Of a DNA stretch of 64,000 bases, positions 3,847-32,500 are shown one piece after another. Each line of letters begins with the position of its first letter. Within the stretch, counting starts at the first letter, position 1. Source of the stretch: an uncultured Flavobacterium sp. GTDB lineage: Bacteria; Bacteroidota; Bacteroidia; Flavobacteriales; Flavobacteriaceae. The DNA lies in NCBI RefSeq assembly GCF_963975515.1, contig NZ_CAXBGY010000012.1, forward strand, positions 12,467-76,466. The letters are read 5' to 3'. A program made the position numbers and the translations under genes. The notes under the pieces were generated by a model. The model was not told where the DNA came from. It ran no database searches and saw only the letters and a list, made by a program, of their open reading frames with translations.

Positions 3847-4824
3847 TTATTTTATAAATTTTGTTGAATTGATTATTGCTTCCATTTCGAACATGTGATC
3901 TCTTTTGGCTTTTGTAGGCAAGTAAGTAAATCCTTCAACAATTAGATAACGATTGTTTTTAGTGTCTTTGATAGCATAATTTACAAAAGGTCCACCCATA
4001 AAATCGTTTTTTAAAACCCAAGTACCTTTAGCTAAATATGTAAACTTGTTGTCTAATTTTGTTTCAAACAAATAAGGTGCATAAGCTTCTTCGGTAATCA
4101 TCCATGTGTTTGGCAACATTCCATGAATATTTGCTTTTCCAATAGAATCTCTAATGTTTATTATATTTTGAACGATATCCTGATTTTTTTCTACACTTTC
4201 AATAGGCACTTCGTAAATTAAAATACTATTGTAACCTGATTGAAATTCTTTTCGTAACCAAATAAATTTATCTTTAACCGTGTCATATTCATAACCATAA
4301 CCAATGTTCATAGACACACCAAATTTGTCTTCTATCTTTTTATCATTAACCAATGATTTTTTCATTCGTTTTTGATTCTCAATAATTTCACCGTTTTTAA
4401 CCGTGCTAATTATTTCTTTAGATTTAGATTCAATAATTTTTAATAAATCTTCATTTGTTTTTCCTGATATAAAAAAAACATTTTGAGGTGCTGCGTATAA
4501 ATCTTTAGAAGCTCCAAAACCCGTTTTGTCTGCTTTTTGAACAACAATTATGTTTCTTCCTTTTTTTACAAAACCATCAAATATTTTTGTTGGATATTGA
4601 TTGATATTAAACAAAGGCTCTTCTTGAGGCAAACCGTCTACTGGTGCAGCAAATTTTTTACGCAAAGAATCTCCAATTTCTCCATTCCAAAGTGGTTCAT
4701 CAATAAAAATAGAAACGTTATTAATATTTCCTGAAGATTCAGAAAGTCCTTTGTTGTTAGAAGCTTCTTCTTTACAAGAAAATAATAAGAAGGAAAGAAA
4801 CAGAAGTAAAAAAGATCTTTTCAT
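3847..4824 (-). CDS. Lipoprotein, DUF4837-like
   Basis: Lipobox (LLFSC); GLPQEEPLF, GTW...FMGGPFVNY and KRDHMFEMEAI resemble this Bacteroidota family, which usually follows mltD. Confidence 0.75.
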   Translation of the reverse strand: MKRSFLLLFLSFLLFSCKEEASNNKGLSESSGNINNVSIFIDEPLWNGEIGDSLRKKFAAPVDGLPQEEPLFNINQYPTKIFDGFVKKGRNIIVVQKADKTGFGASKDLYAAPQNVFFISGKTNEDLLKIIESKSKEIISTVKNGEIIENQKRMKKSLVNDKKIEDKFGVSMNIGYGYEYDTVKDKFIWLRKEFQSGYNSILIYEVPIESVEKNQDIVQNIINIRDSIGKANIHGMLPNTWMITEEAYAPYLFETKLDNKFTYLAKGTWVLKNDFMGGPFVNYAIKDTKNNRYLIVEGFTYLPTKAKRDHMFEMEAIINSTKFIK

Positions 4825-4846
4825 TTGAGGTTGATTTAATAAGATT

Positions 4847-6364
4847 TTACCCGTTTATTTTTAATTTCATTCCGGGTTGAATATTATCACCACTAATATC
4901 GTTCCATTTTTTTAAATCGTCTGTAGAAACTCCAGGATATTTTTTTGCAATAGTGTATAATGAATCCCCATTTCTAACTATATAACTAGTTGTACTGGTT
5001 GATCTAGAAGTCTTTGAATTATCTTCTTTTGTGCTATAAATTTTTAATTTATTTCCAGTTTGTATTGTGGAAGACCTAAGATTATTCCATTTTTTTATTT
5101 CTGAAACAGAAACATCATATTTTTGTGCAATTAAACCAAGACTTTCTCCACGTCTTACTGAATGGTACGCTAATTTACTTTTTGTTTTGGTTTCTTTATA
5201 TTCAACGATATTTGTTTCTTCAGAATTTTCAACAATAGCATCTTGTGCTTTTTCTCCACCATTTTTTACATAATCAATGTAAGCATAAACTGCTTCTTCA
5301 TTAGAAACAAATAAACCGATTTTATCTTTTGGTAATCTTAAAAAGTGAGGTTTATCTTCGTTAAAAGGAATTATGTTTAATTTATAAATTGGGTTTAAAA
5401 ATTCTACTTGATCTTGAGGAATATCAAATAAATCCGAAACCTGTTTGAAACTCATTTCTCTTCTAACCTTAATGGTGTCAGTTTCAAAATAAGTTAAAGG
5501 TGCTTTTTTTGGTTTAATTCCCAATTCCTTTTTATATTCATAAATATACATTGTAGCTAAAAAAGCGGGTACATAATTAGCTGTTTCTCTAGGAAGATTT
5601 TTTCTAATAATCCAATAATTTTGACTTCCTCCAGAACGTCTTATGGCTTTAGAAACATTTCCTGGGCCAGCATTATATGAAGCTAAAACTAAACTCCAAT
5701 CTCCAAAAATTTTATATAAACTAGATAAATATTGGCAAGCTGCTTCAGTTGCTTTTAAGGGATCGTATCTTTCATCAACATAAGAATTGACTTCTAAGTT
5801 AAATTGTTTTCCAGTTGGATACATAAATTGCCAAAGTCCAGAAGCACCAACTCTACTTTTTGCTCTTGGATTTAAAGCTGATTCTACAATTGCTAAATAT
5901 TTAATTTCTAAAGGCACATCATATTTAGCTAAATGCTCTTCAAACATTGGAAAATAATATTCAGAAATAGCCATTAATCGTTCAAAACTATGTTTTCTGT
6001 TTTTTAAGAATGATTTAATTACATTTTCAAGTGATGTGTTATACTCAATATTAAATGGTGATTTATCATCCATTTTTTTAAGTCTTTTCTTAAGAACTTC
6101 TGTTGACATTTCGTAAGCAACAGCTTCCTCTATGTCCAAGTCAGAAACATCTTCGTACATATTATCAAAAAGCTCTTGGTTAGATAATTCTTCCATCCAT
6201 CTGCTATCTATACAAATGCTTGTACTGTGGTTAACAAATGATGCTTTTAAAGAATCTAAATAAGAAACTTTTGTAACTGTTTCTTCAATTAAATTTGCCT
6301 CTACACTTTCTTGTGCAAAGGAAATTAAAGGTAATAGTAAGAATAAAATGTTTTTGATTTTCAT
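4847..6364 (-). CDS. mltD: Lytic murein transglycosylase (SLT domain) with two C-terminal LysM domains
   Basis: LAIVESAL, GASGLWQFM, ASYNAGPGNV and ETANYVP; two LysM repeats (HSVRRGESLGLIA, YIVRNGDSLYTIA). Confidence 0.9.
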   Translation of the reverse strand: MKIKNILFLLLPLISFAQESVEANLIEETVTKVSYLDSLKASFVNHSTSICIDSRWMEELSNQELFDNMYEDVSDLDIEEAVAYEMSTEVLKKRLKKMDDKSPFNIEYNTSLENVIKSFLKNRKHSFERLMAISEYYFPMFEEHLAKYDVPLEIKYLAIVESALNPRAKSRVGASGLWQFMYPTGKQFNLEVNSYVDERYDPLKATEAACQYLSSLYKIFGDWSLVLASYNAGPGNVSKAIRRSGGSQNYWIIRKNLPRETANYVPAFLATMYIYEYKKELGIKPKKAPLTYFETDTIKVRREMSFKQVSDLFDIPQDQVEFLNPIYKLNIIPFNEDKPHFLRLPKDKIGLFVSNEEAVYAYIDYVKNGGEKAQDAIVENSEETNIVEYKETKTKSKLAYHSVRRGESLGLIAQKYDVSVSEIKKWNNLRSSTIQTGNKLKIYSTKEDNSKTSRSTSTTSYIVRNGDSLYTIAKKYPGVSTDDLKKWNDISGDNIQPGMKLKING

Positions 6365-6432
6365 CTTGCAGGAATTTGTAATTTAATAGTTTATTAATCT
6401 ATGATAACTCAAAAAAGTCAAAAATAGTATTA

Positions 6433-7620
6433 TTATTGGATAATAGCTTGAATTCCAGGTAAAGTTTTTCCTTCTAGCATTTCTAACATTGCTCCACCAC
6501 CTGTGGAAACATAGCTTACTTGATCTTCAAAACCAAATTGTTTTACTGCTGAAACTGAGTCACCACCACCAACTAGAGAAAAAGCTCCGTTTTTAGTTGC
6601 TGCAGCAATATATTCTCCAACTTTAATTGTTCCATTAGCAAAACTTGGCATTTCGAAAACACCAACTGGTCCATTCCAAAGAATCGTTTTCGATTTTAAA
6701 ATTACTTCTTCAAAAAGTTCAAGCGATTTTGGTCCAGCATCTAAACCTTGCCAACCATCAGGAATTTTAGTTACATCAATTATTTGAGTATTAGCATCGT
6801 TAGAAAAAGCATCAGCAGCAATTACATCAACTGGTAAATGTATTTGCACTCCTTTTTCTTTTGCTTTTTTTAAAATTTCTAAAGCTAAATCCATCTTATC
6901 ATCCTCACATATAGAGTTTCCAACACTTCCGCCTAAAGCTTTGATAAAAGTAAAAGTCATTCCTCCACCAATTATCATATGGTCGATTTTATCTAAAATA
7001 TTTTCGATAATTGTAATTTTCGAAGATACTTTTGAACCCCCTAAAATTGCTGTAACTGGTTTTTGAGAATCCTTAAGTACTTTATTGATGCTTTCAATTT
7101 CTTTGGCTAACAATAATCCGAAATATTTATCATTTGGAAAATAATTTGCAATTATAGTTGTTGAAGCATGCGCTCTATGTGCTGTTCCAAAAGCATCATT
7201 TACATATACATCTCCTAACGTTGATAATTTTTTTGCGAAGTCAGAATCTCCTGCTTCTTCTTCCTTATAAAACCTAAGGTTTTCTAGTAGAAGTATTTGA
7301 TTTGGTTGTAGATTGCTTGCTTTTGAGTGTGCATCGCTACCTATACAATCATCTGCAAAAAGAATTTCTCTTCCTAAAATTTCTGAAACTTTACCAATAA
7401 TATGCTTTAATGAATATTTTTCTTCCTTTCCTTTTGGTCTTCCTAAATGCGACATTAAGATTACACTTCCACCCTCATTTAAGATTTTATCAATAGTTGG
7501 TTTTGCAGCTTCAATTCGTGTTGCATCAGTTACATTAAAATTTTCGTCTAAAGGAACATTAAAATCAACTCTGATAATTGCTTTTTTTCCATTAAAGTCT
7601 AAATTATTGATTGTTTTCAT
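6433..7620 (-). CDS. pgk: Phosphoglycerate kinase
   Basis: [41 protein letters not shown] and STGGGA. Confidence 0.99.
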
Positions 7621-7666: not shown

Positions 7667-7674
7667 CAAAAATA
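7667..7674 (-). promoter_or_regulatory. Bacteroidota -7 promoter element for pgk
   Basis: TATTTTTG on the minus strand fits TAnnTTTG, about 47 nt before the start codon. Confidence 0.5.
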
Positions 7675-7702
7675 AAAAAGACTCACAAATGAGTCTTTTT
7701 TT
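7674..7702. terminator. Intrinsic terminator after the 648-aa gene
   Basis: AAAAAAGACTCA-CAAA-TGAGTCTTTTTTT hairpin with A/T tails. Confidence 0.75.
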
Positions 7703-7718
7703 AATACTAATTTAACGT

Positions 7719-9665
7719 TTACACGAGTTCGTCATCTTTAGATCTCGTGGCAACCATTTTTTGTTGGGGACAAAAAGGGTCATTATAATCTACATTCTGT
7801 TCATTACTTACTAATTGGTCAGGACTAGTGTTTACTAACATTATCCAAGTATCACCATAATATTTTCCGTTAACATTTGAATAATATAAATTTAAAGCAT
7901 TTGTCCAAGAATCATTTTTACTTACAAAAACATATCTGTAATTATTTTTTGGGTTGATAAAGAAATTAGCATCAATACCTAAACTTCTTAGTTTTGCAAC
8001 AAAACGAGTTGCATTTCTATGAACAGCAAACACATTTGCAATTACATAAAATCCACGTTGTTGATTATAAATTTCAACCATTGGTCCTGGAATTGCGGTG
8101 ATTTTTTGTTTTTGTCCATATTGATTTTGTGCAACTTGACTCAATTTTTCGCTAATCATAACTGGATCAATCATTGTTGTGTTTGAGGCAACAACATCAT
8201 TGTTCTCGGTCTTAACTTTTGGGTGACTAACTACAACTTCTTTTTTTGGAGCTAAAACAACACTGTTTGTGTTTTCTTTTGGACTGTTATCGACTTTAAC
8301 TGCAATTATTGTTTCTTTTTTGGTCGGCTCAATTGCTTTAACTTCTATTTTAGTTGTTTCAGCAACTATATTCTCTTTAGTTGGTATTTTAGTTTCTGAC
8401 TTTATTTCGTTTTTAACAATAGTTGTTGTTGTAGGTTTTGTATTGTCGGCAATAACTGTTTCTGTAACTATAGGAGTTGTAACAGATTCTTTAGTTTCTT
8501 CAGCTTCATTTGAAACAAACATAACTGGTTCTTTTTTAGCATCTTGAACCTCTACATTGAAAGCGTTAAAGAACATAAAGTATCTATCTCCTACTGTTTT
8601 AAGCTTTAAGGTTACATTATCCGTATTATTTTGAATAACAGAATTATCAGGATTTGCAATAGTTATTAAACTTGTGTCATAACCTAGGGTATTTTTACTG
8701 TTTGGGTTTCTGTCCGTAAAGTATTGGTCATTTATAATAATATTACTATTGAAAAAATTATTTTCTAATTTTAATGGTCCGCTTAATAATGTGAAAATTT
8801 CACTTAGTTGAGATTTTATTTGTAATTGGTCTCCAGCTAAATTATTATCCCCTTCTAAACCAGCACAAGCTAATTTAGCAAAAACATTTCCTTCAGGTAA
8901 AGTTTTAAATCCTGTAAATAATATTTCTGTGTCTTTATCTGTTACACCTGCAAAACCATCATATGAAGTTATGAATTTTGCTGTTTCGTTATCATCTTCA
9001 TAAACAAAAAACATTGTCCATCCACCTGAAACTCCACCTTCAACAACTCCTTGTGTTGCTTTTATGTTTGCAACTGTATATTCTCCAACAGGACTTCCAA
9101 GCTCTTTTACTAAATCGGTAATGTCAGCATAAACTGCATATGGAGCACTTTCGTCAAATCCTTTTTTATCTAAACCATCAAAAATTATATTTCCTTTTAT
9201 ATCTACATATTTAGATTCTCCAGGAAGTTTCAATTTAATTTGATCAAACTCTTCTCTATTTTTATCAAATGCTTTAAATTTGTTGCGTTTCTTTTTGATT
9301 CCACTATTGTATTTATAAGTGGCAGACCAGTATAAACCAGCGTAAACTATTTTTTTATTTTCTTCATTTTCAAGATATAATGTTGCAGCACTAGAACTAA
9401 AAGTAGACATGTCACTATCAATATCAATATAAAACATTTCAAACTCGTCATTAAGTTTGGCTGTTTTAGTTGCGTTCATGTATGGCATGTTTGGATTATT
9501 TCCATAATCTTTTCTGTTCACAATATTGTTTGCTATAACAGTCATATCGCCTTTAACATAAGACTGATATCTTACTTTAAAAGGAACGGGTAATTGACCA
9601 TAAGAAAAAGATGTTGCAAAAAGGATTGCAACCATTAACCCTAATTTTGAAATTTTGCTTAACAT
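7719..9665 (-). CDS. Exported protein: SprB-N-terminal-like domain, Thr/Glu/Lys-rich linker and SPOR-like C-terminal domain
   Basis: Residues ~24-372 align by eye with the N-terminus of the 4674-aa protein (GDMTVIANNIVNR, AGLYWSATY, GGWT, LEGDN, RNPNSxNTLGxD). C-terminal GFYVIANVFAVHRNATRFVAKLRSLG is SPOR-like. No T9SS CTD. Confidence 0.8.
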   Translation of the reverse strand: MLSKISKLGLMVAILFATSFSYGQLPVPFKVRYQSYVKGDMTVIANNIVNRKDYGNNPNMPYMNATKTAKLNDEFEMFYIDIDSDMSTFSSSAATLYLENEENKKIVYAGLYWSATYKYNSGIKKKRNKFKAFDKNREEFDQIKLKLPGESKYVDIKGNIIFDGLDKKGFDESAPYAVYADITDLVKELGSPVGEYTVANIKATQGVVEGGVSGGWTMFFVYEDDNETAKFITSYDGFAGVTDKDTEILFTGFKTLPEGNVFAKLACAGLEGDNNLAGDQLQIKSQLSEIFTLLSGPLKLENNFFNSNIIINDQYFTDRNPNSKNTLGYDTSLITIANPDNSVIQNNTDNVTLKLKTVGDRYFMFFNAFNVEVQDAKKEPVMFVSNEAEETKESVTTPIVTETVIADNTKPTTTTIVKNEIKSETKIPTKENIVAETTKIEVKAIEPTKKETIIAVKVDNSPKENTNSVVLAPKKEVVVSHPKVKTENNDVVASNTTMIDPVMISEKLSQVAQNQYGQKQKITAIPGPMVEIYNQQRGFYVIANVFAVHRNATRFVAKLRSLGIDANFFINPKNNYRYVFVSKNDSWTNALNLYYSNVNGKYYGDTWIMLVNTSPDQLVSNEQNVDYNDPFCPQQKMVATRSKDDELV

Positions 9666-9734
9666 AATACTTAGTTTTACAATTATTATACTAACGAATC
9701 ATTAACAATTATTTTTATGTACATTTACTTTTTT

Positions 9735-9864
9735 TGTTAGTAAGTGCAATCAATTTGATGATAAAAGAACTGTTTTTAAATCTTTTACTAAACTATTAAG
9801 AATAGTGATTGGTTTATCAACAATGGTAAACGACTTATTAACAATTTTTATTGTGTTATCAACA
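9735..9864. promoter_or_regulatory. Phased array of DnaA-box-like 9-mers
   Basis: TTATCAACA 9814, TTATTAACA 9835 and TTATCAACA 9856 (21-bp period); reverse-oriented variants TGTTAGTAA 9735 and TGATGATAA 9756 (also 21 bp apart). Confidence 0.6.
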
Positions 9865-11064: not shown

Positions 11065-13338
11065 TTAAAGTATTTCTTTCAAACTTGCTTTATATAACTT
11101 AAGTTCTTCCCAGGAGAACTTGTCGCCAATGGTTTCTTTTAGTTCTGATAAACTTTCTCCTTTAAAATATTTAAACAAAACTTGTAATTGTTTGATTTTT
11201 TCGGCTGAAAGCACATCTTCAATGGCAATATATTCTTGCTGAATTAACTTTGCAAAATGGCTGCTAATAGTGGTTTCTGTTAACTTTCGAATAGTTGCAA
11301 TCTCTTTGATAGTATGGTTTTCTTTCCAAAATTCTAAAGTGATTTCAATAGTTGGTTTTTTACTTTCTTTTGATTTTTTTACCTTTGGTTCGTAGTAAGA
11401 AACGTCTGGATCAACATCAAAAACACCTGGTTTTACAGTGTTCAAATCTTTGATCTTCTTAAGTTTATTCGCTTTATAAGAAAGAATTTCTTCAGAAATA
11501 AGATTTTCTTTCGAAATTTCTTTTCCAGATGCAACCATTTCAATTAACAATTTGGCTTTCATTAAGCGTTGAATTGTTTTAGTTTGAGTATCTTCTAAAT
11601 CATTCAACTCGTCGTAAAATGTTTTAACTTTCTTTATGCGTTTTATTTCATCTACCTTAAGTAACAATTCATAAACAAAATTATCTAAGTCTTTATAAAA
11701 ATAGTTGTACGCAGCTTGAAATCGTTCATTAATGTATTGAACTTCAAAGGGTTCTTTAGAGAAAATATTGTTTAATTGTTTAATAAAATTTTGAGCAGGA
11801 ACAACCAAATTATCAATTTTATTCGATTGATTTTCAGCCCATTTAGCATATTTAGATTTTGGTGATTTTGGTGCTTCTTCTTTATAGCTGAATCTGTGAT
11901 TTCTCCATTCTTGTGCTAAGTCTTGCCAATCAAAAGTTGCTTTTAGATAGTTAAATAAATAGTTTTTTGTTTCTTGTTCTAATGATTTTTGAATGTATTC
12001 ATCAGAGGCTTTTTGTTCAGCGTAAAGCATAACATCACTATCATTAGAAAGTCCATTCATTTGAATTGGAGCTAATAAAACCAAGCCTTTTAACGATCGT
12101 AAACGAGATAGTGCCACATAAGCTTGTCCTGGTTGAAAAACACGTGAAACATCTAATGCTGCTTTGTCAAACGTTAATCCTTGGCTTTTATGAACCGTTA
12201 TTGCCCAAGCTAATTTTATAGGATAATGCGTAAAGGTTCCAAGTACTTCTTCCTGAATTTCTTTAGTTGTTTCATTGACTTTATATCTTATGTTTTGCCA
12301 TTCATATCGTTCAACTTCAATGGTTTTTTTCTCTTCTGTAAACTCTACAGTTATCTCATCTTTAGACAGATACTTAATTATTCCCATTTTTCCATTAAAA
12401 TAGTTTTTCTCAAACGAAAGGTCATTTTTGATGAACATGATTTGAGCACCAACCTTTAATTCTAAATTATCTTCTACTGGATAGATTTTATCTGGAAAAT
12501 CATCTACAATTTGAGCTTTATAAGAAAAAGACTTTCCTTCTAATTCATTTAAAGCTTCAGAATTAATCGAATCTGCCTTTCTATTATGAGTCGTAAGTGT
12601 AATAAATCCTTCATTCTTTTTTAAATCAAAATCAGGATTAACAAACTGATTTAGAATACTTAAGTCAGATTTAGTTATAGTATTATTTCTTAAATTGTTT
12701 AGTACTTCAATAAATTCGCTATCTGTTTGACGATAAATTTTATCTAACTCAATGTATAAAGGTGGATTTTGCTGAACAACATGAGAATGAAAGAAAAACT
12801 TACCTTGATAGTATTTACGTAAAATATCCCATTCTTCAGGTTTTACGATTGGAGGTAATTGTAGTAAATCTCCTATAAATAAAACTTGCGCACCTCCAAA
12901 AGGAAGTTTGTTTCTTCTAACAGATTGCATCATAAAATCAATTGCATCTAGAAGATCTGCACGCAACATACTGACTTCATCAATAACTAGTAACTCAATG
13001 TTTCTGATAACATTTCGTTTAACAGCGCTCATTTTAAAATGTCTAGAAAGAGTACTTTTGGACTCAAATTTAACAGTATCTTTAAAATGTGGAGCAATTG
13101 TATCTGGAATGAATCCACCAAACGGAAGTTGAAAAAGGGAATGAATAGTAACACCACCAGCATTTAGTGCGGCAATTCCAGTAGGAGCAACAACAGCAGT
13201 GTTTTTGTGTGTTGTTTTAATAATTTCTTTTAGTAGAGTAGTTTTACCTGTTCCTGCTTTTCCAGTAAGAAAAACAGATTTATTAGTCTGATTAATAAAC
13301 TTCAAGGTATAACTTGCAACGGCTGATAATGAATTCAT
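11065..13338 (-). CDS. Pif1/RecD-like SF1B helicase with a C-terminal helix-turn-helix domain
   Basis: FLTGKAGTGKTT, APTGIAA, IDEVSM, GDLLQLPP, YRQ, AWAITVHKSQGLTFD and YVALSR; C-terminal HTH (TIKEIATIRKLTETTISSH). ATG 13338 preferred to 13377. Confidence 0.9.
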   Translation of the reverse strand: MNSLSAVASYTLKFINQTNKSVFLTGKAGTGKTTLLKEIIKTTHKNTAVVAPTGIAALNAGGVTIHSLFQLPFGGFIPDTIAPHFKDTVKFESKSTLSRHFKMSAVKRNVIRNIELLVIDEVSMLRADLLDAIDFMMQSVRRNKLPFGGAQVLFIGDLLQLPPIVKPEEWDILRKYYQGKFFFHSHVVQQNPPLYIELDKIYRQTDSEFIEVLNNLRNNTITKSDLSILNQFVNPDFDLKKNEGFITLTTHNRKADSINSEALNELEGKSFSYKAQIVDDFPDKIYPVEDNLELKVGAQIMFIKNDLSFEKNYFNGKMGIIKYLSKDEITVEFTEEKKTIEVERYEWQNIRYKVNETTKEIQEEVLGTFTHYPIKLAWAITVHKSQGLTFDKAALDVSRVFQPGQAYVALSRLRSLKGLVLLAPIQMNGLSNDSDVMLYAEQKASDEYIQKSLEQETKNYLFNYLKATFDWQDLAQEWRNHRFSYKEEAPKSPKSKYAKWAENQSNKIDNLVVPAQNFIKQLNNIFSKEPFEVQYINERFQAAYNYFYKDLDNFVYELLLKVDEIKRIKKVKTFYDELNDLEDTQTKTIQRLMKAKLLIEMVASGKEISKENLISEEILSYKANKLKKIKDLNTVKPGVFDVDPDVSYYEPKVKKSKESKKPTIEITLEFWKENHTIKEIATIRKLTETTISSHFAKLIQQEYIAIEDVLSAEKIKQLQVLFKYFKGESLSELKETIGDKFSWEELKLYKASLKEIL

Positions 13339-13382
13339 TGGCTTATATTTAACACCATAAAAGTATAAAAAAAACACAAATA

Positions 13383-28152: not shown

Positions 28153-29541
28153 ATGAATAGACACAAATTTCTTTTTATTATAGGGCTTGTCTTAAGCTGT
28201 GTTATAACTAATGCTCAAACTGATAGCAGTGATGAGTTTATAATGCCGTCTCAGACATTTATGCGTTTTAATAGAAATTTAGTTAACCCAACGTTATCAA
28301 TATTTAATAGTTATAAATCAGAATATGTAGCTTATCATAGAAACCAATGGTTTGATTATGATGAATCACCAAAAACATACATGGTAAATTACTCTGGAAA
28401 CGATTATGAAAATACTGGTTATGGATTAGGAATATATCAACAAGAGGTTGGTGTTTGGAAAAGCATTGGGGCTATTGCAAATTATGCAAAAGGTGTGCGT
28501 TTAAACGATGAAACTATATTGTCTTTAGGGTTTAATGTAGTCTTTTTTAATTCGGGTTTAAACAGAGGTAAAATAATAACTGGTGAAGCAGATCCGTATT
28601 TGGAACAATATGATAATACAAGTATGTTGATGCTAAATCCTGGATTATCTATCCAAGTTGGAAAGTTTAATTTTGGTGTTTATGGAGATAATTTAGTGGA
28701 TTATAATTTCAAATTAGGCGAAATGCAAACCAAATTTGGTGAAAAAACTATCTCAAGTCATTTGTCGTATATGTACTCTTTGGAGAATGCTTCAAATTTA
28801 TTTGAAAACAGTAGTTTAACCTTTTTAGGAAGAGGAAAATATATTGCCATGGAAGACTTTGATTATTCTGGTGGAATATTATATAATGTTCCAAGAGCTG
28901 GTTGGGTTCAAGGTTCTTATAGTGATTATTATGGGGTTTCGGGTGGTTTAGGAATAAACATCTCACAAAAAATTGCTGTAGGTTATAATTACGAAAAAGG
29001 ATTAGGTAAAGAAATTACAAATTTAGGAGCTACTCATGAAATATTTTTAGCCCTTACATTAGATAGCAATGAAGAATTCTCAGCATATGCTAAAAAACCA
29101 AAAATTAATAAACAAGAAGAAGCCGATAGACTTAAAAATCAAACCTTAGAACAAGAAGAAATTGACAGGTTTAAACAAAATATTTATAATCAAACTATTG
29201 TAGAAACGAACAATACAATTGTTAAAAAACTAGAAGAGTTTGTTTTGAATGCAGAGAACGACAACATTAATTATTTACTACTCCCAGAGAAAAACACTGG
29301 AGTTAAGAAAGGATATTATGTGATTGCTACTATTTATAAAGATAAAAATAAAGCGTCGAAATTTATAAGTGAGTTAAAGAAAAAAGGATTAAACAAAAGT
29401 GGATCATTTAAAACATCTGGCAATCAATGGAACTATGTTTACATAGAACGTTTTGAAAGTTATGAAGCAGCCAAAAAAGCATATCAAACAAAATTCAACA
29501 ATAAGTACCCCGAAACTATGTGGATTTTACCAATACTATAA
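28153..29541 (+). CDS. sprD: PorP/SprF-family T9SS membrane protein with a SPOR-like C-terminal extension, SprD-like
   Basis: NLVNPT, YHRNQW...SPKTY and VGYNYE...GATHEI barrel motifs; tail KGYYVIATIYKDKNKASKFISELKKKG. Confidence 0.72.
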   Translation: MNRHKFLFIIGLVLSCVITNAQTDSSDEFIMPSQTFMRFNRNLVNPTLSIFNSYKSEYVAYHRNQWFDYDESPKTYMVNYSGNDYENTGYGLGIYQQEVGVWKSIGAIANYAKGVRLNDETILSLGFNVVFFNSGLNRGKIITGEADPYLEQYDNTSMLMLNPGLSIQVGKFNFGVYGDNLVDYNFKLGEMQTKFGEKTISSHLSYMYSLENASNLFENSSLTFLGRGKYIAMEDFDYSGGILYNVPRAGWVQGSYSDYYGVSGGLGINISQKIAVGYNYEKGLGKEITNLGATHEIFLALTLDSNEEFSAYAKKPKINKQEEADRLKNQTLEQEEIDRFKQNIYNQTIVETNNTIVKKLEEFVLNAENDNINYLLLPEKNTGVKKGYYVIATIYKDKNKASKFISELKKKGLNKSGSFKTSGNQWNYVYIERFESYEAAKKAYQTKFNNKYPETMWILPIL

Positions 29542-29544
29542 CCT

Positions 29545-32500
29545 ATGAGAAAAATTACCCTATCTCAAAAATTTGTTGCTATTCTAATTTTAACATTAGG
29601 AACAATTACGTCATCAGCACAAATTAAAAACCCTTTTGATGTTCGATTTCAAACAACTGTAAGAGGAGATTTAACCATGATCTCTAACAATATTGTTAAT
29701 AGAAGTCCAAACCCAAATACGGCCTATAATACAACTGGAGGTTCATCTATCTATAATGATGAAACTAATATGCAGTTTATTGATATTGATGGTTCAACTC
29801 AAACATTTAATTCGAGTAGTGCTAATTTGACAGTTCCAGATGCAACATGTTCAAAGATCGTTCATGCTGGATTGTATTGGTCAGCAACTTATAGATATAA
29901 TATAGGTAACGACCCTTCTAGTGGACGTGCAACAGATTGGAATCAAGTAAAATTTAGAGTACCTGGTGGTGCTTATGTAAATGTGATTGCTGATGAAGTT
30001 TTATATGATGGTTTTGCTGATCCTATTCAAACAAATGTTACGCATGGTCCTTATGGTTGTTTTGCAGATGTTACTGCCTTAGTGTCTGGATTAGCCAATC
30101 CAAATGGAACCTATTTCGTCGGAAATATTAGAGTTAGTACAAATGGTAATAGTAGCGGTTCATTTTCAATACAAGGTGGAGTAGCTGGTGGATGGACTTT
30201 AGTAATCGTATACGAAAACATTAATTTACCCGGTAAAAAAATTACAACTTTTGATGGATATGCTGTTGTGGCTTCAAATGCTGGAAATTTAGATATTCCT
30301 GTTTCTGGATTTTCGACATTGCCTGCTCCATTTCCAGTAAGAGCAAAACTTGGAATTTCTACTTTAGAAGGAGATAATAGAGTTATAGGTGATCAATTAA
30401 GAATTAAAGCAAATTCAATAGCTGGTTTTACAAACCTAACAAATACACCTTTACCTGCCGCAGCAGTAACAAATAATTATTTTAATTCTTCAATTACCTT
30501 AAATGGCGCCTTTTTTAATGCCAGAAATCCAAATAGTTTAAACACCCTAGGTTGGGATGCTCACTTAAATAGAGTTAATAATCCTGGAAATAGCGTAATC
30601 CCTAATAATGAGACTGGTGTAACCTTAAGGGCGGTTTCAAGTGGTGATAAATATGATGTGTTTTTTACTTCTTTTGATGTTGAAATTATTGAACCTCAAA
30701 TTCCTTTATTAAAACAAGTTGAAGATATATCTGGTAATAATGTAAACGGTCAAACCTTAACCTTAGGACAAGAAATTTTTTATACCTTAACTTTTCAGAA
30801 TACTGGAAATGATAATGCGCTGAATTTTACCCTTACTGATATATTGCCAACAAACGCAATATTTCCAGCAAATGGAACTATTCAGCCTGGAGATTTAATT
30901 TTACCACCGGGAGTTACTTATGTTTTTAACCCAACAACAAATCAATTTACATTTTCTATACCAAATAATTTAGTTGAAATAGGAGATCCAGCTTATACAA
31001 TAAAAATTAAGGTTAAGTTACCTTTAAATTGTGAAGATTTTAGAGATGCTTGTACTAATCAAATAATTAACCAAGCCTATGTTTCTTATAATGGAGAATT
31101 AAATACTCAAGTTATTACAGATAACCCTAGTTTCAATGGATATGACAATTGTAATTATCCAACTCCAGGAACAACAAATTTTATAGCAAATATTGATGAT
31201 TGTATTTTTACAAGAACAGAAATTTTATGTGGTAACACTTTAGAATTAACAGGAGCTGATGGTTACGACACTTATTTGTGGCAAGATTCATCGGGAAATA
31301 CAATTGGAAATACACAAACAATAACTGTAAATGCTACAGGAACCTATACTGTGTTTTTATCTATTCCACCACCTTGTGTTTCAATATATGAGACAGTAAA
31401 TGTTGTAGATTTTAACAATGCCATAAGTTCAAACCCAGCAATTCCTTATGCAAATGTTGTAGAAACATGTCCTAATGATGGTTCACAGTTACCAAAAATA
31501 TTTTTATGTGGGTTAAATGATAGTGTCTTAATTCAATCCGGAGTAAATAATGCTATTAGTATACAATGGCAACAACTAGTTCCTGGAAGTTGTGCTCCAG
31601 TTGGAATTAGTAACTGTGCCAATACTAATAATAGTTGTACATGGAATACGGTTGGAACAGGTCCAAATTTTAATGTAACAACAGCTGGTGAATATCAGGT
31701 TATTTTTAACTATCAAAATGGTTGTTTTAGAAAATTCTATTTTAATGTTTTTCAAAACACATTAAATCCTGATATAGTAACGTCAAATATTATTTGTACA
31801 ACACCTGGTTCAATTACAATAAACAATATTCCTTCTACTTACGAATTTAGTTTATCTCCTACTGGTCCGTTTTCATCAAACAATGTAATTCCGATAACTA
31901 CTGCAGGAAATTATACTGTATACATTCAACAAACAGGAGTAACAGGAGGATGTCTTTTTGAGTTTCCAAATATTAATATCTTAAATCAAATTTTAGATGT
32001 TGATGTGATTGTTACAGATAAACTTTGTAATGATGGTTTTGGAAGTATTAGGGTACAAACGAATGGAGTAGAACCACAATATTATTTTCAGATATCTCAA
32101 GGAGCAACAATAATATCAACATTTGGTCCTTCAACAGATAATGATCATTTATTTTCTAATTTAAATCCTGGAACTTATACCGTAACAGCAACAACAGACG
32201 ATGGTTGTACATATACTGAACAAGTTACTATACAAGATTTATCAGATTTAGCCGTAAGTGCAGCAGTAACACAAAATATTAGTTGTGTAAATGGTCAAGT
32301 AACTTTAACACCATCTGGTGGTTTAGCTCCATACAATTATGCTGTTTATAGTTACAATGGAGTTCCAGTAGTATCAGGAAACTATGCTTATCAAACCTAC
32401 GAAATATTTGAGTATAATATAACTCAAATTGGAACTTATCAATATATAATTGTTGATAGTAATAATTGTACTTCGTTATCAAATATAGTAACAGTAGCAG

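What the first reader, a model, noticed from the sequence alone, without database searches (positions are those of the whole stretch)
7719..9665. SprB head domain reused in a SPOR-tailed protein with no T9SS signal
Seen: about 350 aa align motif-for-motif with the N-terminal domain of the SprB-like adhesin 20 kb away (KIVYAGLYWSATY vs KIVHAGLYWSATY; LEGDNNLAGDQLQIK vs LEGDNRVIGDQLRIK; RNPNSKNTLGYD vs RNPNSLNTLGWD). A T/E/K-rich linker and a SPOR-like domain resembling the SprD tail follow, and there is no type A or B CTD. Known: SPOR domains bind denuded peptidoglycan, and surface SprB needs a CTD. Inference: the adhesin head domain also acts in the periplasm, tethered to the wall, perhaps as part of the gliding track. 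It may correspond to one of the F. johnsoniae rem genes; I could not verify this.
Basis: partly seen in the sequence, partly recalled or inferred. Interest (0 to 1): 0.65.

Follow-up and report, generated by a model that had tools for sequence, protein, structure and literature searches.

The report
Wall-tethered paralog of gliding-adhesin head
This gene encodes an exported protein that joins a copy of the tip domain of the giant gliding adhesin SprB to a cell-wall-binding (SPOR-type) tail with no secretion tag; it belongs to an old, conserved, unstudied family of Flavobacteriaceae that probably stays in the periplasm.

Summary
ORF 7719-9665 (-) encodes 648 aa: a Sec signal peptide, a 355-aa head 42% identical (E 4e-80) to the N-terminus of the 4674-aa SprB-like adhesin 20 kb away, a 120-aa T/V/E/K-rich disordered linker, and a diverged SPOR domain. 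That SPOR domain's closest relative in this genome is the tail of the SprD-like barrel encoded just before sprB. There is no T9SS C-terminal domain. In 221 homologs at most 46 residues follow the SPOR core.

The fusion is not recent and it is not a Rem protein. It is the positional ortholog of a gene kept between pgk and holB in several Flavobacteriaceae genera. In a tree of 71 heads, the SPOR-tailed proteins separate from the giant adhesins on one branch (support 96). The family occurs in about 13 of 101 genera sampled. It is absent from 20 large Flavobacterium genomes that do carry giants.

The head models with high confidence (pLDDT 92) as two beta-sandwiches with no close solved relative. 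In every other architecture found, it sits at the N-terminus of a T9SS-tagged surface protein.

The most likely reading is a periplasmic, peptidoglycan-tethered ligand-binding module. A role in the gliding track is unsupported. Function remains untested.

The parts
9597..9665 (-). Sec signal peptide, aa 1-23 (MLSKISKLGLMVAILFATSFSYG|Q); signal peptidase I type with Gln at +1 and no lipobox
   Evidence: Read from the sequence. Diverse homologs have the same ...[A/S/G]|Q ending and no lipobox.
8532..9596 (-). SprB-type head domain, aa 24-378; two beta-sandwiches
   Evidence: 42% identity, E 4e-80, to the SprB-like N-terminus. The head-only AF2 model has pLDDT 91.8 and pTM 0.92. The best Foldseek PDB match has TM <=0.27. 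53 positions are >=90% conserved in both short and giant proteins.
8166..8531 (-). Disordered T/V/E/K-rich linker, aa 379-500
   Evidence: pLDDT <50 over 379-498. Composition. Linker length across the family is 42-377 aa, median 137.
8058..8165 (-). Predicted helix (aa 501-516) and the lead-in to the SPOR domain (aa 517-536)
   Evidence: AF2 secondary structure.
7830..8057 (-). Diverged SPOR domain, aa 537-612, of the SprD-tail type
   Evidence: Pfam SPOR 14.6-18.5 bits, below the cut-off of 21. The positional ortholog scores 28.2 bits. 16 of 24 diverse tails hit SPOR, best E 3.5e-8. The model has beta-alpha-beta-beta-alpha-beta topology. 28% identity, E 1e-8, to the SprD-like tail.
7719..7829 (-). 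Non-conserved 36-aa C-terminal extension plus the stop codon; too short for a T9SS CTD
   Evidence: pLDDT <50. No CTD hit. Across the family 0-46 residues follow the SPOR core.
7674..7701 (-). Terminator-like hairpin (12-bp stem plus T run) between this gene and pgk
29545..30687 (+). Paralogous head domain at the N-terminus of the SprB-like adhesin (aa 1-381)
29305..29529 (+). Paralogous SPOR tail of the SprD-like PorP/SprF barrel protein (aa 385-459); it ends just upstream of the sprB start codon
   Evidence: Pfam SPOR 29.3 bits and 33.8 bits in the genome search. Aligned to the target tail.

Best explanation
The protein is exported by Sec and its signal peptide is cut, leaving Gln at +1. It has no T9SS C-terminal domain, no lipobox and no barrel, so it most likely stays soluble in the periplasm. 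Its SPOR-type tail, the same subtype that ends the SprD-like outer-membrane barrel, docks it on peptidoglycan glycan strands. A flexible linker of about 120 residues lets the N-terminal head range over tens of nanometres. The head is a two-beta-sandwich module that elsewhere forms the N-terminal domain of T9SS-secreted surface proteins. It keeps the polar and acidic residues conserved in those proteins, so it probably binds the same kind of ligand, possibly a glycan and possibly with Ca2+.

Shown here: the domain composition, the homologies, the absence of a CTD across the family, the age of the family and its conserved genomic position.

Inferred: the periplasmic location, peptidoglycan binding, ligand binding by the head, and the idea that the head is the distal tip of the surface proteins.

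The family is an old accessory paralog, not a core gliding component.
For: Architecture and homology. The own genome holds only three matches to the protein: itself, the SprB head and the SprD tail.

SPOR identity at the family level: the positional ortholog scores 28.2 bits against a cut-off of 21; 16 of 24 tails hit SPOR; some orthologs carry a precomputed PF05036 hit; the model has beta-alpha-beta-beta-alpha-beta topology.

No CTD: there are no hits, and at most 46 residues follow the SPOR core in 221 homologs. Every other architecture found for the head carries a type A or type B CTD: P0342, P0311, P0297 and the giants.

Signal peptides with no lipobox.

The head is always N-terminal, at residues ~22-400, in the best 150 of 2610 representative hits.

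53 head positions are conserved in both classes, among them N72, D83, S91, S92, D181, E271, D273, D279, R319, N325 and D330.

Age and conservation: the tree splits shorts from giants with support 96, and the gene order DUF4837, LysM/SLT, pgk, X, holB is conserved across genera.
Against: The target's own SPOR score is below Pfam's cut-off. A profile of the tails finds no solved SPOR structure by sequence.

The Gln that contacts the glycan in characterised SPOR domains (HMM position 8; PMC6895207) is Ile542 here, by ungapped projection of the Pfam match. The genome's other, above-threshold SPOR protein also lacks this Gln, so the substitution is not decisive.

The head's ligand is unknown, and Foldseek gives only weak, generic two-jelly-roll matches.

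A route to the surface that does not use a CTD cannot be excluded by sequence.
Confidence: 0.5

Rival explanations
1. It is a periplasmic accessory of the SprB/SprD gliding-adhesin system. For example, it could be a wall-fixed dock that binds the same partner as the SprB head, or one that works with the SprD tail.
For: Its two domains have their only paralogs in this genome on either side of the sprD|sprB gene junction. In several Flavobacterium genomes the gene lies 7-24 kb from the giant's start. 9-10 of about 13 genera with the short protein also have a giant with this head.
Against: It is absent from about 88 of 101 genera, although 71 of the 101 have giants with this head. It is absent from 20 of 20 large Flavobacterium genomes that carry giants. 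G178, 99% complete, has the short protein but no SprB repeat. Its conserved neighbours are pgk and holB, not gliding genes. Co-occurrence with GldJ is uninformative because GldJ is present in 20 of 20 genomes that lack the head.
Confidence: 0.15
2. It reaches the cell surface, the medium or outer-membrane vesicles by a route that needs no CTD. There it acts as a free or loosely bound adhesin or lectin, and the SPOR-like tail binds something other than the cell's own wall.
For: In every other architecture found, the head is on a surface protein. The key SPOR Gln is replaced.
Against: There is no CTD anywhere in the family, no lipobox and no barrel. Orthologs pass Pfam's SPOR cut-off. The SprD-type tail belongs on the periplasmic side, because the C-tail of the related barrel SprF bonds to periplasmic GldK (PMC12635249).
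Confidence: 0.12
3. The head is an enzyme rather than a binding module, acting on a glycan or a peptide. The SPOR tail would take it to denuded, septal peptidoglycan, as in RlpA or CwlC.
For: The weak fold matches include two-sandwich enzymes, PNGase F and PHM. There are many invariant Asp, Glu, Arg and Asn residues. A LysM/SLT lytic transglycosylase is a conserved neighbour two genes away.
Against: TM-scores are <=0.27 with high rmsd, so the resemblance is generic. The same head caps giant adhesins, where an enzyme is unexpected. A terminator separates the gene from pgk and the transglycosylase gene.
Confidence: 0.08
4. It is a decaying remnant or a chance chimera with no function.
For: None found beyond the patchy distribution.
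Against: The frame is intact. There are hundreds of homologs: 624 and 665 hits in the two searches. Synteny is conserved across genera. Residues are strongly conserved in both domains. The AF2 model is of high confidence.
Confidence: 0.02

Closest known systems
SprB gliding adhesin (F. johnsoniae) and SprB-like giants: N-terminal domain
   Same: Homologous head of about 355 aa placed directly after the signal peptide. Identity is 42-56% to Flavobacterium giants, and 53 positions are conserved in both classes.
   Different: The target has no SprB repeats, no type B CTD and no adjacent SprF-type partner. It is 648 aa rather than thousands. Its heads form a separate old clade.
SprD-like PorP/SprF barrel with a C-terminal SPOR domain (window 28153-29541)
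   Same: The same linker-plus-SPOR tail subtype: 28% identity to the window's own SprD tail and 46-53% to SprD tails of other Flavobacterium species. The linker homology extends over aa ~400-620 in some genomes.
   Different: The N-terminal part is a soluble beta-sandwich head instead of an outer-membrane barrel.
SPOR-domain envelope proteins of the type 'functional domain, long flexible linker, SPOR' (FtsN, DamX, DedD, RlpA; CwlC)
   Same: A C-terminal SPOR domain follows a long disordered linker, and the SPOR fold topology is present. Such domains bind denuded glycan strands (PMC6895207).
   Different: The target has no membrane anchor or lipid anchor. Its passenger domain is unrelated to those proteins. 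The conserved glycan-contacting Gln is replaced by Ile/Val/Leu. The target scores below Pfam's cut-off.
Small T9SS surface proteins with the same head (P0342, P0311, P0297)
   Same: The same N-terminal head.
   Different: Those proteins continue with DUF11/DUF7619-like Ig domains and end in a type A or type B CTD. The target ends in SPOR.

Membership tests
SPOR domain (Pfam PF05036) | Match to the family HMM at or above the gathering score (21 bits) | tested here: inconclusive
   The target scores 14.6 bits as a whole protein and 18.5 bits for the tail alone, both below the cut-off. The positional ortholog L031 (524 aa) scores 28.2 bits over HMM positions 3-75. P0241 scores 30.4 bits. 16 of 24 diverse tails hit at E<=0.1.
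SPOR domain (Pfam PF05036) | Beta-alpha-beta-beta-alpha-beta (RNP-like) fold | tested here: met
   In the AF2 full-length model the elements are E538-546, H549-561, E567-571, E576-584, H587-599 and E607-611, at pLDDT about 66-83. No structural superposition on a solved SPOR domain could be run.
SPOR domain (Pfam PF05036) | Conserved glycan-contacting Gln at HMM position 8 and Phe at position 12 (PMC6895207) | tested here: not met
   By ungapped projection of the Pfam match (537-579 against HMM 3-47), position 8 is Ile542 and position 12 is Phe546. Across the family position 8 is V/I/L. The genome's other, above-threshold SPOR protein also has Val there.
SPOR domain (Pfam PF05036) | Binds denuded peptidoglycan or localises to the septum | not testable with these tools
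   This needs sacculus binding assays or localisation experiments.
T9SS cargo (type A CTD TIGR04183/PF18962; type B CTD TIGR04131/PF13585) | A C-terminal sorting domain of about 70-100 aa | tested here: not met
   There is no hit at E<=1. Only 36 residues follow the SPOR domain, and 0-46 do so in 221 homologs. Positive controls are detected by the same libraries.
SprB adhesin family | Arrays of SprB repeats (PF13573) plus a type B CTD | tested here: not met
   The target has neither. Only the N-terminal head is shared.
RemF/RemG/RemH/RemI of F. johnsoniae | Paralogs of SprC, SprD, SprB and SprF (from memory of Rhodes et al. 2011; the paper is not held) | tested here: not met
   The target has no CTD, no PorP/SprF barrel and no SprB repeats. 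No short head-bearing ORF was found in 20 large (5-6 Mb) Flavobacterium genomes. F. johnsoniae itself could not be addressed by name.
Bacterial lipoproteins | Lipobox Cys at the signal-peptide cleavage site | tested here: not met
   There is no lipobox in 221 homologs, and the signal peptides end ...[A/S/G]|Q.

The most novel reading that the evidence does not exclude
The head shared with SprB and the tail shared with SprD would mark this protein as a so far unseen periplasmic, wall-fixed partner of the gliding-adhesin system. It might be a peptidoglycan-bound dock that recognises what SprB-type heads recognise, holding or guiding adhesin heads before export. Alternatively it might give the moving track a fixed point on the wall. 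On this reading SprB-type heads bind an envelope component of the cell itself rather than only external surfaces.
Probability: 0.08. Interest if true: 0.8.

Novelty: new variant of a known kind. Interest (0 to 1): 0.45.

Why it matters
The N-terminal domain of SprB-like giants has no Pfam or NCBIfam model and no solved relative, and its ligand is unknown. This family offers the same domain as a small, soluble protein of about 350 residues that models with high confidence. That gives a practical way to ask what the head of a gliding adhesin binds.

It is also a clean natural contrast. Every other head-bearing architecture examined here carries a T9SS tag, while this one carries a wall-binding tail instead. 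It adds to a recurring pattern in Bacteroidota of SPOR tails serving as wall anchors on envelope proteins, as in the SprD-like barrel in this window.

If the periplasmic location is right, the head has a function inside the envelope that current gliding models do not include.

Tried and rejected
1. Recent chimera made from the sprD|sprB junction. This was suggested because loci L010-L027 turned out to be SprD-tail/SprB-head junctions that are more similar to the target (52-56% and 46-53%) than the window's own copies. I rejected it after adding giants from other genera, when shorts and giants separated cleanly, and after finding cross-genus synteny.

2. Operon with pgk and the LysM/SLT transglycosylase. 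A strong terminator-like hairpin follows the stop codon, so co-transcription is unlikely.

3. Functional inference from the fold. Two Foldseek PDB searches gave only TM <=0.27 matches to double-jelly-roll capsid proteins, Cry toxins, PNGase F and PHM. I treat these as generic.

4. Sequence-profile searches of the PDB found nothing useful, either with the whole family or with the tail.

5. Co-occurrence with gliding. GldJ is present in 14 of 14 genomes with the protein, but also in 20 of 20 genomes without any head, so this is uninformative.

6. Literature. No paper combines SprB, SPOR and gliding. SPOR with type IX secretion gives nothing relevant. The two Rhodes 2011 papers are not held.

Full report
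**What is there**

ORF 7719-9665 on the minus strand encodes 648 aa. Its parts are:
- a Sec signal peptide ending SYG|Q
- a head, aa 24-378
- a linker, aa 379-500 (16% T, 15% V, 13% E, 13% K)
- a short helix, aa 501-516
- a SPOR-like domain, aa 537-612
- a 36-aa non-conserved end

That large ORF has 25 SprB repeats and a type B CTD. It sits in an operon of four genes:
- a sprC-like gene (729 aa, type B CTD)
- a sprD-like gene (462 aa, PorP/SprF barrel plus SPOR)
- the sprB-like gene
- a sprF-like gene (317 aa)

The target's tail aligns with the SprD-like SPOR tail at 28% identity, E 1e-8. A search of the whole genome with the target finds only three places: the target itself, the SprB head, and the SprD tail.

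**Is the tail a SPOR domain?**

For the target itself Pfam SPOR is sub-threshold: 14.6 bits for the full protein and 18.5 bits for the tail alone, against a cut-off of 21. At the family level the assignment holds:
- The positional ortholog from another genus scores 28.2 bits over almost the whole model.
- Another relative scores 30.4 bits.
- 16 of 24 diverse tails hit SPOR, best E 3.5e-8.
- Several orthologs carry a precomputed PF05036 hit, and NCBI names some of them 'SPOR domain-containing protein'.
- The AF2 model gives the expected beta-alpha-beta-beta-alpha-beta order at moderate confidence.

There are two caveats. First, a profile of the tails finds no solved SPOR structure by sequence. 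Second, the Gln that contacts the glycan in characterised SPOR domains (HMM position 8; Alcorlo et al. 2019, PMC6895207) corresponds to Ile542 here, and to V/I/L across the family. The Phe at position 12 is kept. The genome's other, above-threshold SPOR protein also lacks that Gln, so this does not argue strongly against wall binding.

**No secretion tag**

No type A or type B CTD model hits the target at E<=1. The same libraries detect CTDs in SprB and SprC of this window and in other proteins that carry the head. In 221 homologs with both head and tail, the number of residues after the SPOR core has a median of 7 and a maximum of 46. This is too few for a CTD. Signal peptides across the family end ...[A/S/G]|Q, with no lipobox.

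**The head**

Modelled alone with 60 sequences, the head gives pLDDT 91.8 and pTM 0.92. It is an all-beta structure of two sandwiches. Foldseek against the PDB finds nothing better than TM 0.27. The matches are double-jelly-roll capsid proteins, Cry toxins, PNGase F and PHM. The resemblance is generic, and the domain has no close solved relative. It also has no Pfam or NCBIfam model.

An exhaustive phmmer search finds 2610 representative proteins at E<=0.001, and 478 at E<=1e-30. In all of the best 150 the domain lies at residues ~22-400, directly after the signal peptide. Three architectures were seen:
- head plus many SprB repeats plus a type B CTD (the giants)
- head plus DUF11/DUF7619-like Ig domains plus a type A or type B CTD (750-970 aa)
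- head plus linker plus one or two SPOR domains with no CTD (470-1010 aa)

53 of 354 head positions are >=90% conserved with the same residue in both short and giant proteins. Many are Asp, Asn, Glu, Ser or Arg. This suggests a shared binding or metal site, but that is an inference.

**Age and distribution**

Close relatives (F. gelidilacus, F. ponti and MAGs; 84-93% identity) keep the whole neighbourhood.

Loci L010-L027 are not orthologs. They are sprD|sprB gene junctions whose SprD tails (46-53%) and SprB heads (52-56%) both match the target.

In other genera the gene order DUF4837 protein, LysM/SLT transglycosylase, pgk, [head+SPOR, ~520 aa], holB is conserved. A second head+SPOR paralog of ~590-610 aa lies a few genes further on. 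Named members come from Olleya, Psychroserpens, Lacinutrix, Formosa and Gelidibacter. Their annotations are 'hypothetical', 'SPOR domain-containing', 'Adhesin SprB' or 'DedD'.

A tree of 71 heads puts all 43 SPOR-tailed proteins on one side of a single branch and all 28 giants on the other, with SH-aLRT 96. This fits one old origin.

In 101 genus representatives with all candidates scored:
- the head occurs in 71
- ORFs of head+SPOR size occur in about 13
- 3-4 of those 13 lack a giant with this head

G178, 99% complete, has the short protein but no SprB repeat at all. Within Flavobacterium only about 15 of 151 species have the short protein. None of 20 large 5-6 Mb genomes has it, although 19 have giants. 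Outside Flavobacteriaceae only weak matches to the head were seen, on longer proteins.

**How it most likely works**

The protein is Sec-exported, has its signal peptide cut, and has no CTD, lipid anchor or barrel. A soluble periplasmic location follows, as an inference. The tail is of the same subtype as the C-terminus of the SprD-like barrel. The C-tail of the related barrel SprF is periplasmic, where it forms a disulfide with GldK (PMC12635249). The SprD-type tail should therefore work on the periplasmic side, where peptidoglycan is the expected ligand. A flexible linker, 42-377 aa across the family, then presents the head.

This is the 'functional domain, long linker, SPOR' plan of known SPOR proteins, but with a new passenger domain. 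What the head binds is unknown. I give this reading about 0.5.

**The gliding-track idea**

The link to gliding rests on homology and on loose linkage to the operon: 20 kb here, and 7-24 kb in some other species. Against it:
- the family is missing from most flavobacteria that carry giants
- it can occur without SprB repeats
- its conserved neighbours are housekeeping genes
- a terminator-like hairpin separates it even from pgk

GldJ co-occurrence (14 of 14) means nothing, because GldJ is also present in 20 of 20 genomes without any head. I give a specific gliding role about 0.15.

Orthology to RemF-RemI is not supported. The architectures differ, and the large Flavobacterium genomes lack the family. 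The identity of the Rem proteins is from memory, because the paper is not held.

**Limits**

- The tail could not be superposed on a solved SPOR domain.
- F. johnsoniae could not be searched by name.
- The prevalence figures rest on ORF length classes, not on domain-by-domain annotation of every hit.

**Verdict**

This is a real, intact and conserved gene. It belongs to an unstudied Flavobacteriaceae family: a known kind of protein (SPOR-tethered envelope protein) carrying the otherwise surface-only SprB-type head. Interest is moderate.

Noticed in passing
window 28153-29541 (+): The SprD-like protein is a PorP/SprF-family barrel (aa 35-300) joined by a linker to a SPOR domain (aa 386-444). 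In other genera the protein encoded just before the giant carries two tandem SPOR copies (G151, G354, G362, G198).
   Followed up: partly
L031 10235-12004 (-), L032 6410-8245 (+), L033 9740-11455 (-): Other genera carry a second head+SPOR paralog of 570-611 aa between a diacylglycerol-kinase-like gene and mnmG, a few kb from the pgk-adjacent copy. It forms its own clade in the head tree.
   Followed up: partly
proteins P0342, P0311, P0297: The same head also caps small (750-970 aa) T9SS proteins with DUF11/DUF7619-like Ig domains and either a type A or a type B CTD. The head is therefore not specific to SprB-repeat giants.
   Followed up: partly
homologs P0074, P0081, P0106, P0119 and others; G094, G014, G092, G127: 15 of 221 homologs carry two tandem SPOR-type tails.
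   Followed up: no
window 3847-7620 (-): The genes for a DUF4837 protein, a LysM+SLT lytic transglycosylase and pgk keep the same order and strand next to the head+SPOR gene in several genera.
   Followed up: partly
window 9666-9850: The 185-bp divergent spacer between this gene and holB must hold this gene's promoter. An earlier first-reader note (e1-5234483) reports TTATYAACA boxes at a 21-bp period here. I did not examine this.
   Followed up: no
G000 contig C2 26977-27189 (locus L058, ORF 1489-2427 -): The genome's third SPOR protein (312 aa) passes Pfam's cut-off at 31 bits, yet has Val where most SPOR domains have the glycan-contacting Gln. This hints that Bacteroidota SPOR domains often differ at this site.
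   Followed up: no
window 11065-13377 (-): A 770-aa PIF1-like helicase with a C-terminal HTH_40 domain lies beside holB in this genus. It is not at that position in the other genera examined.
   Followed up: no
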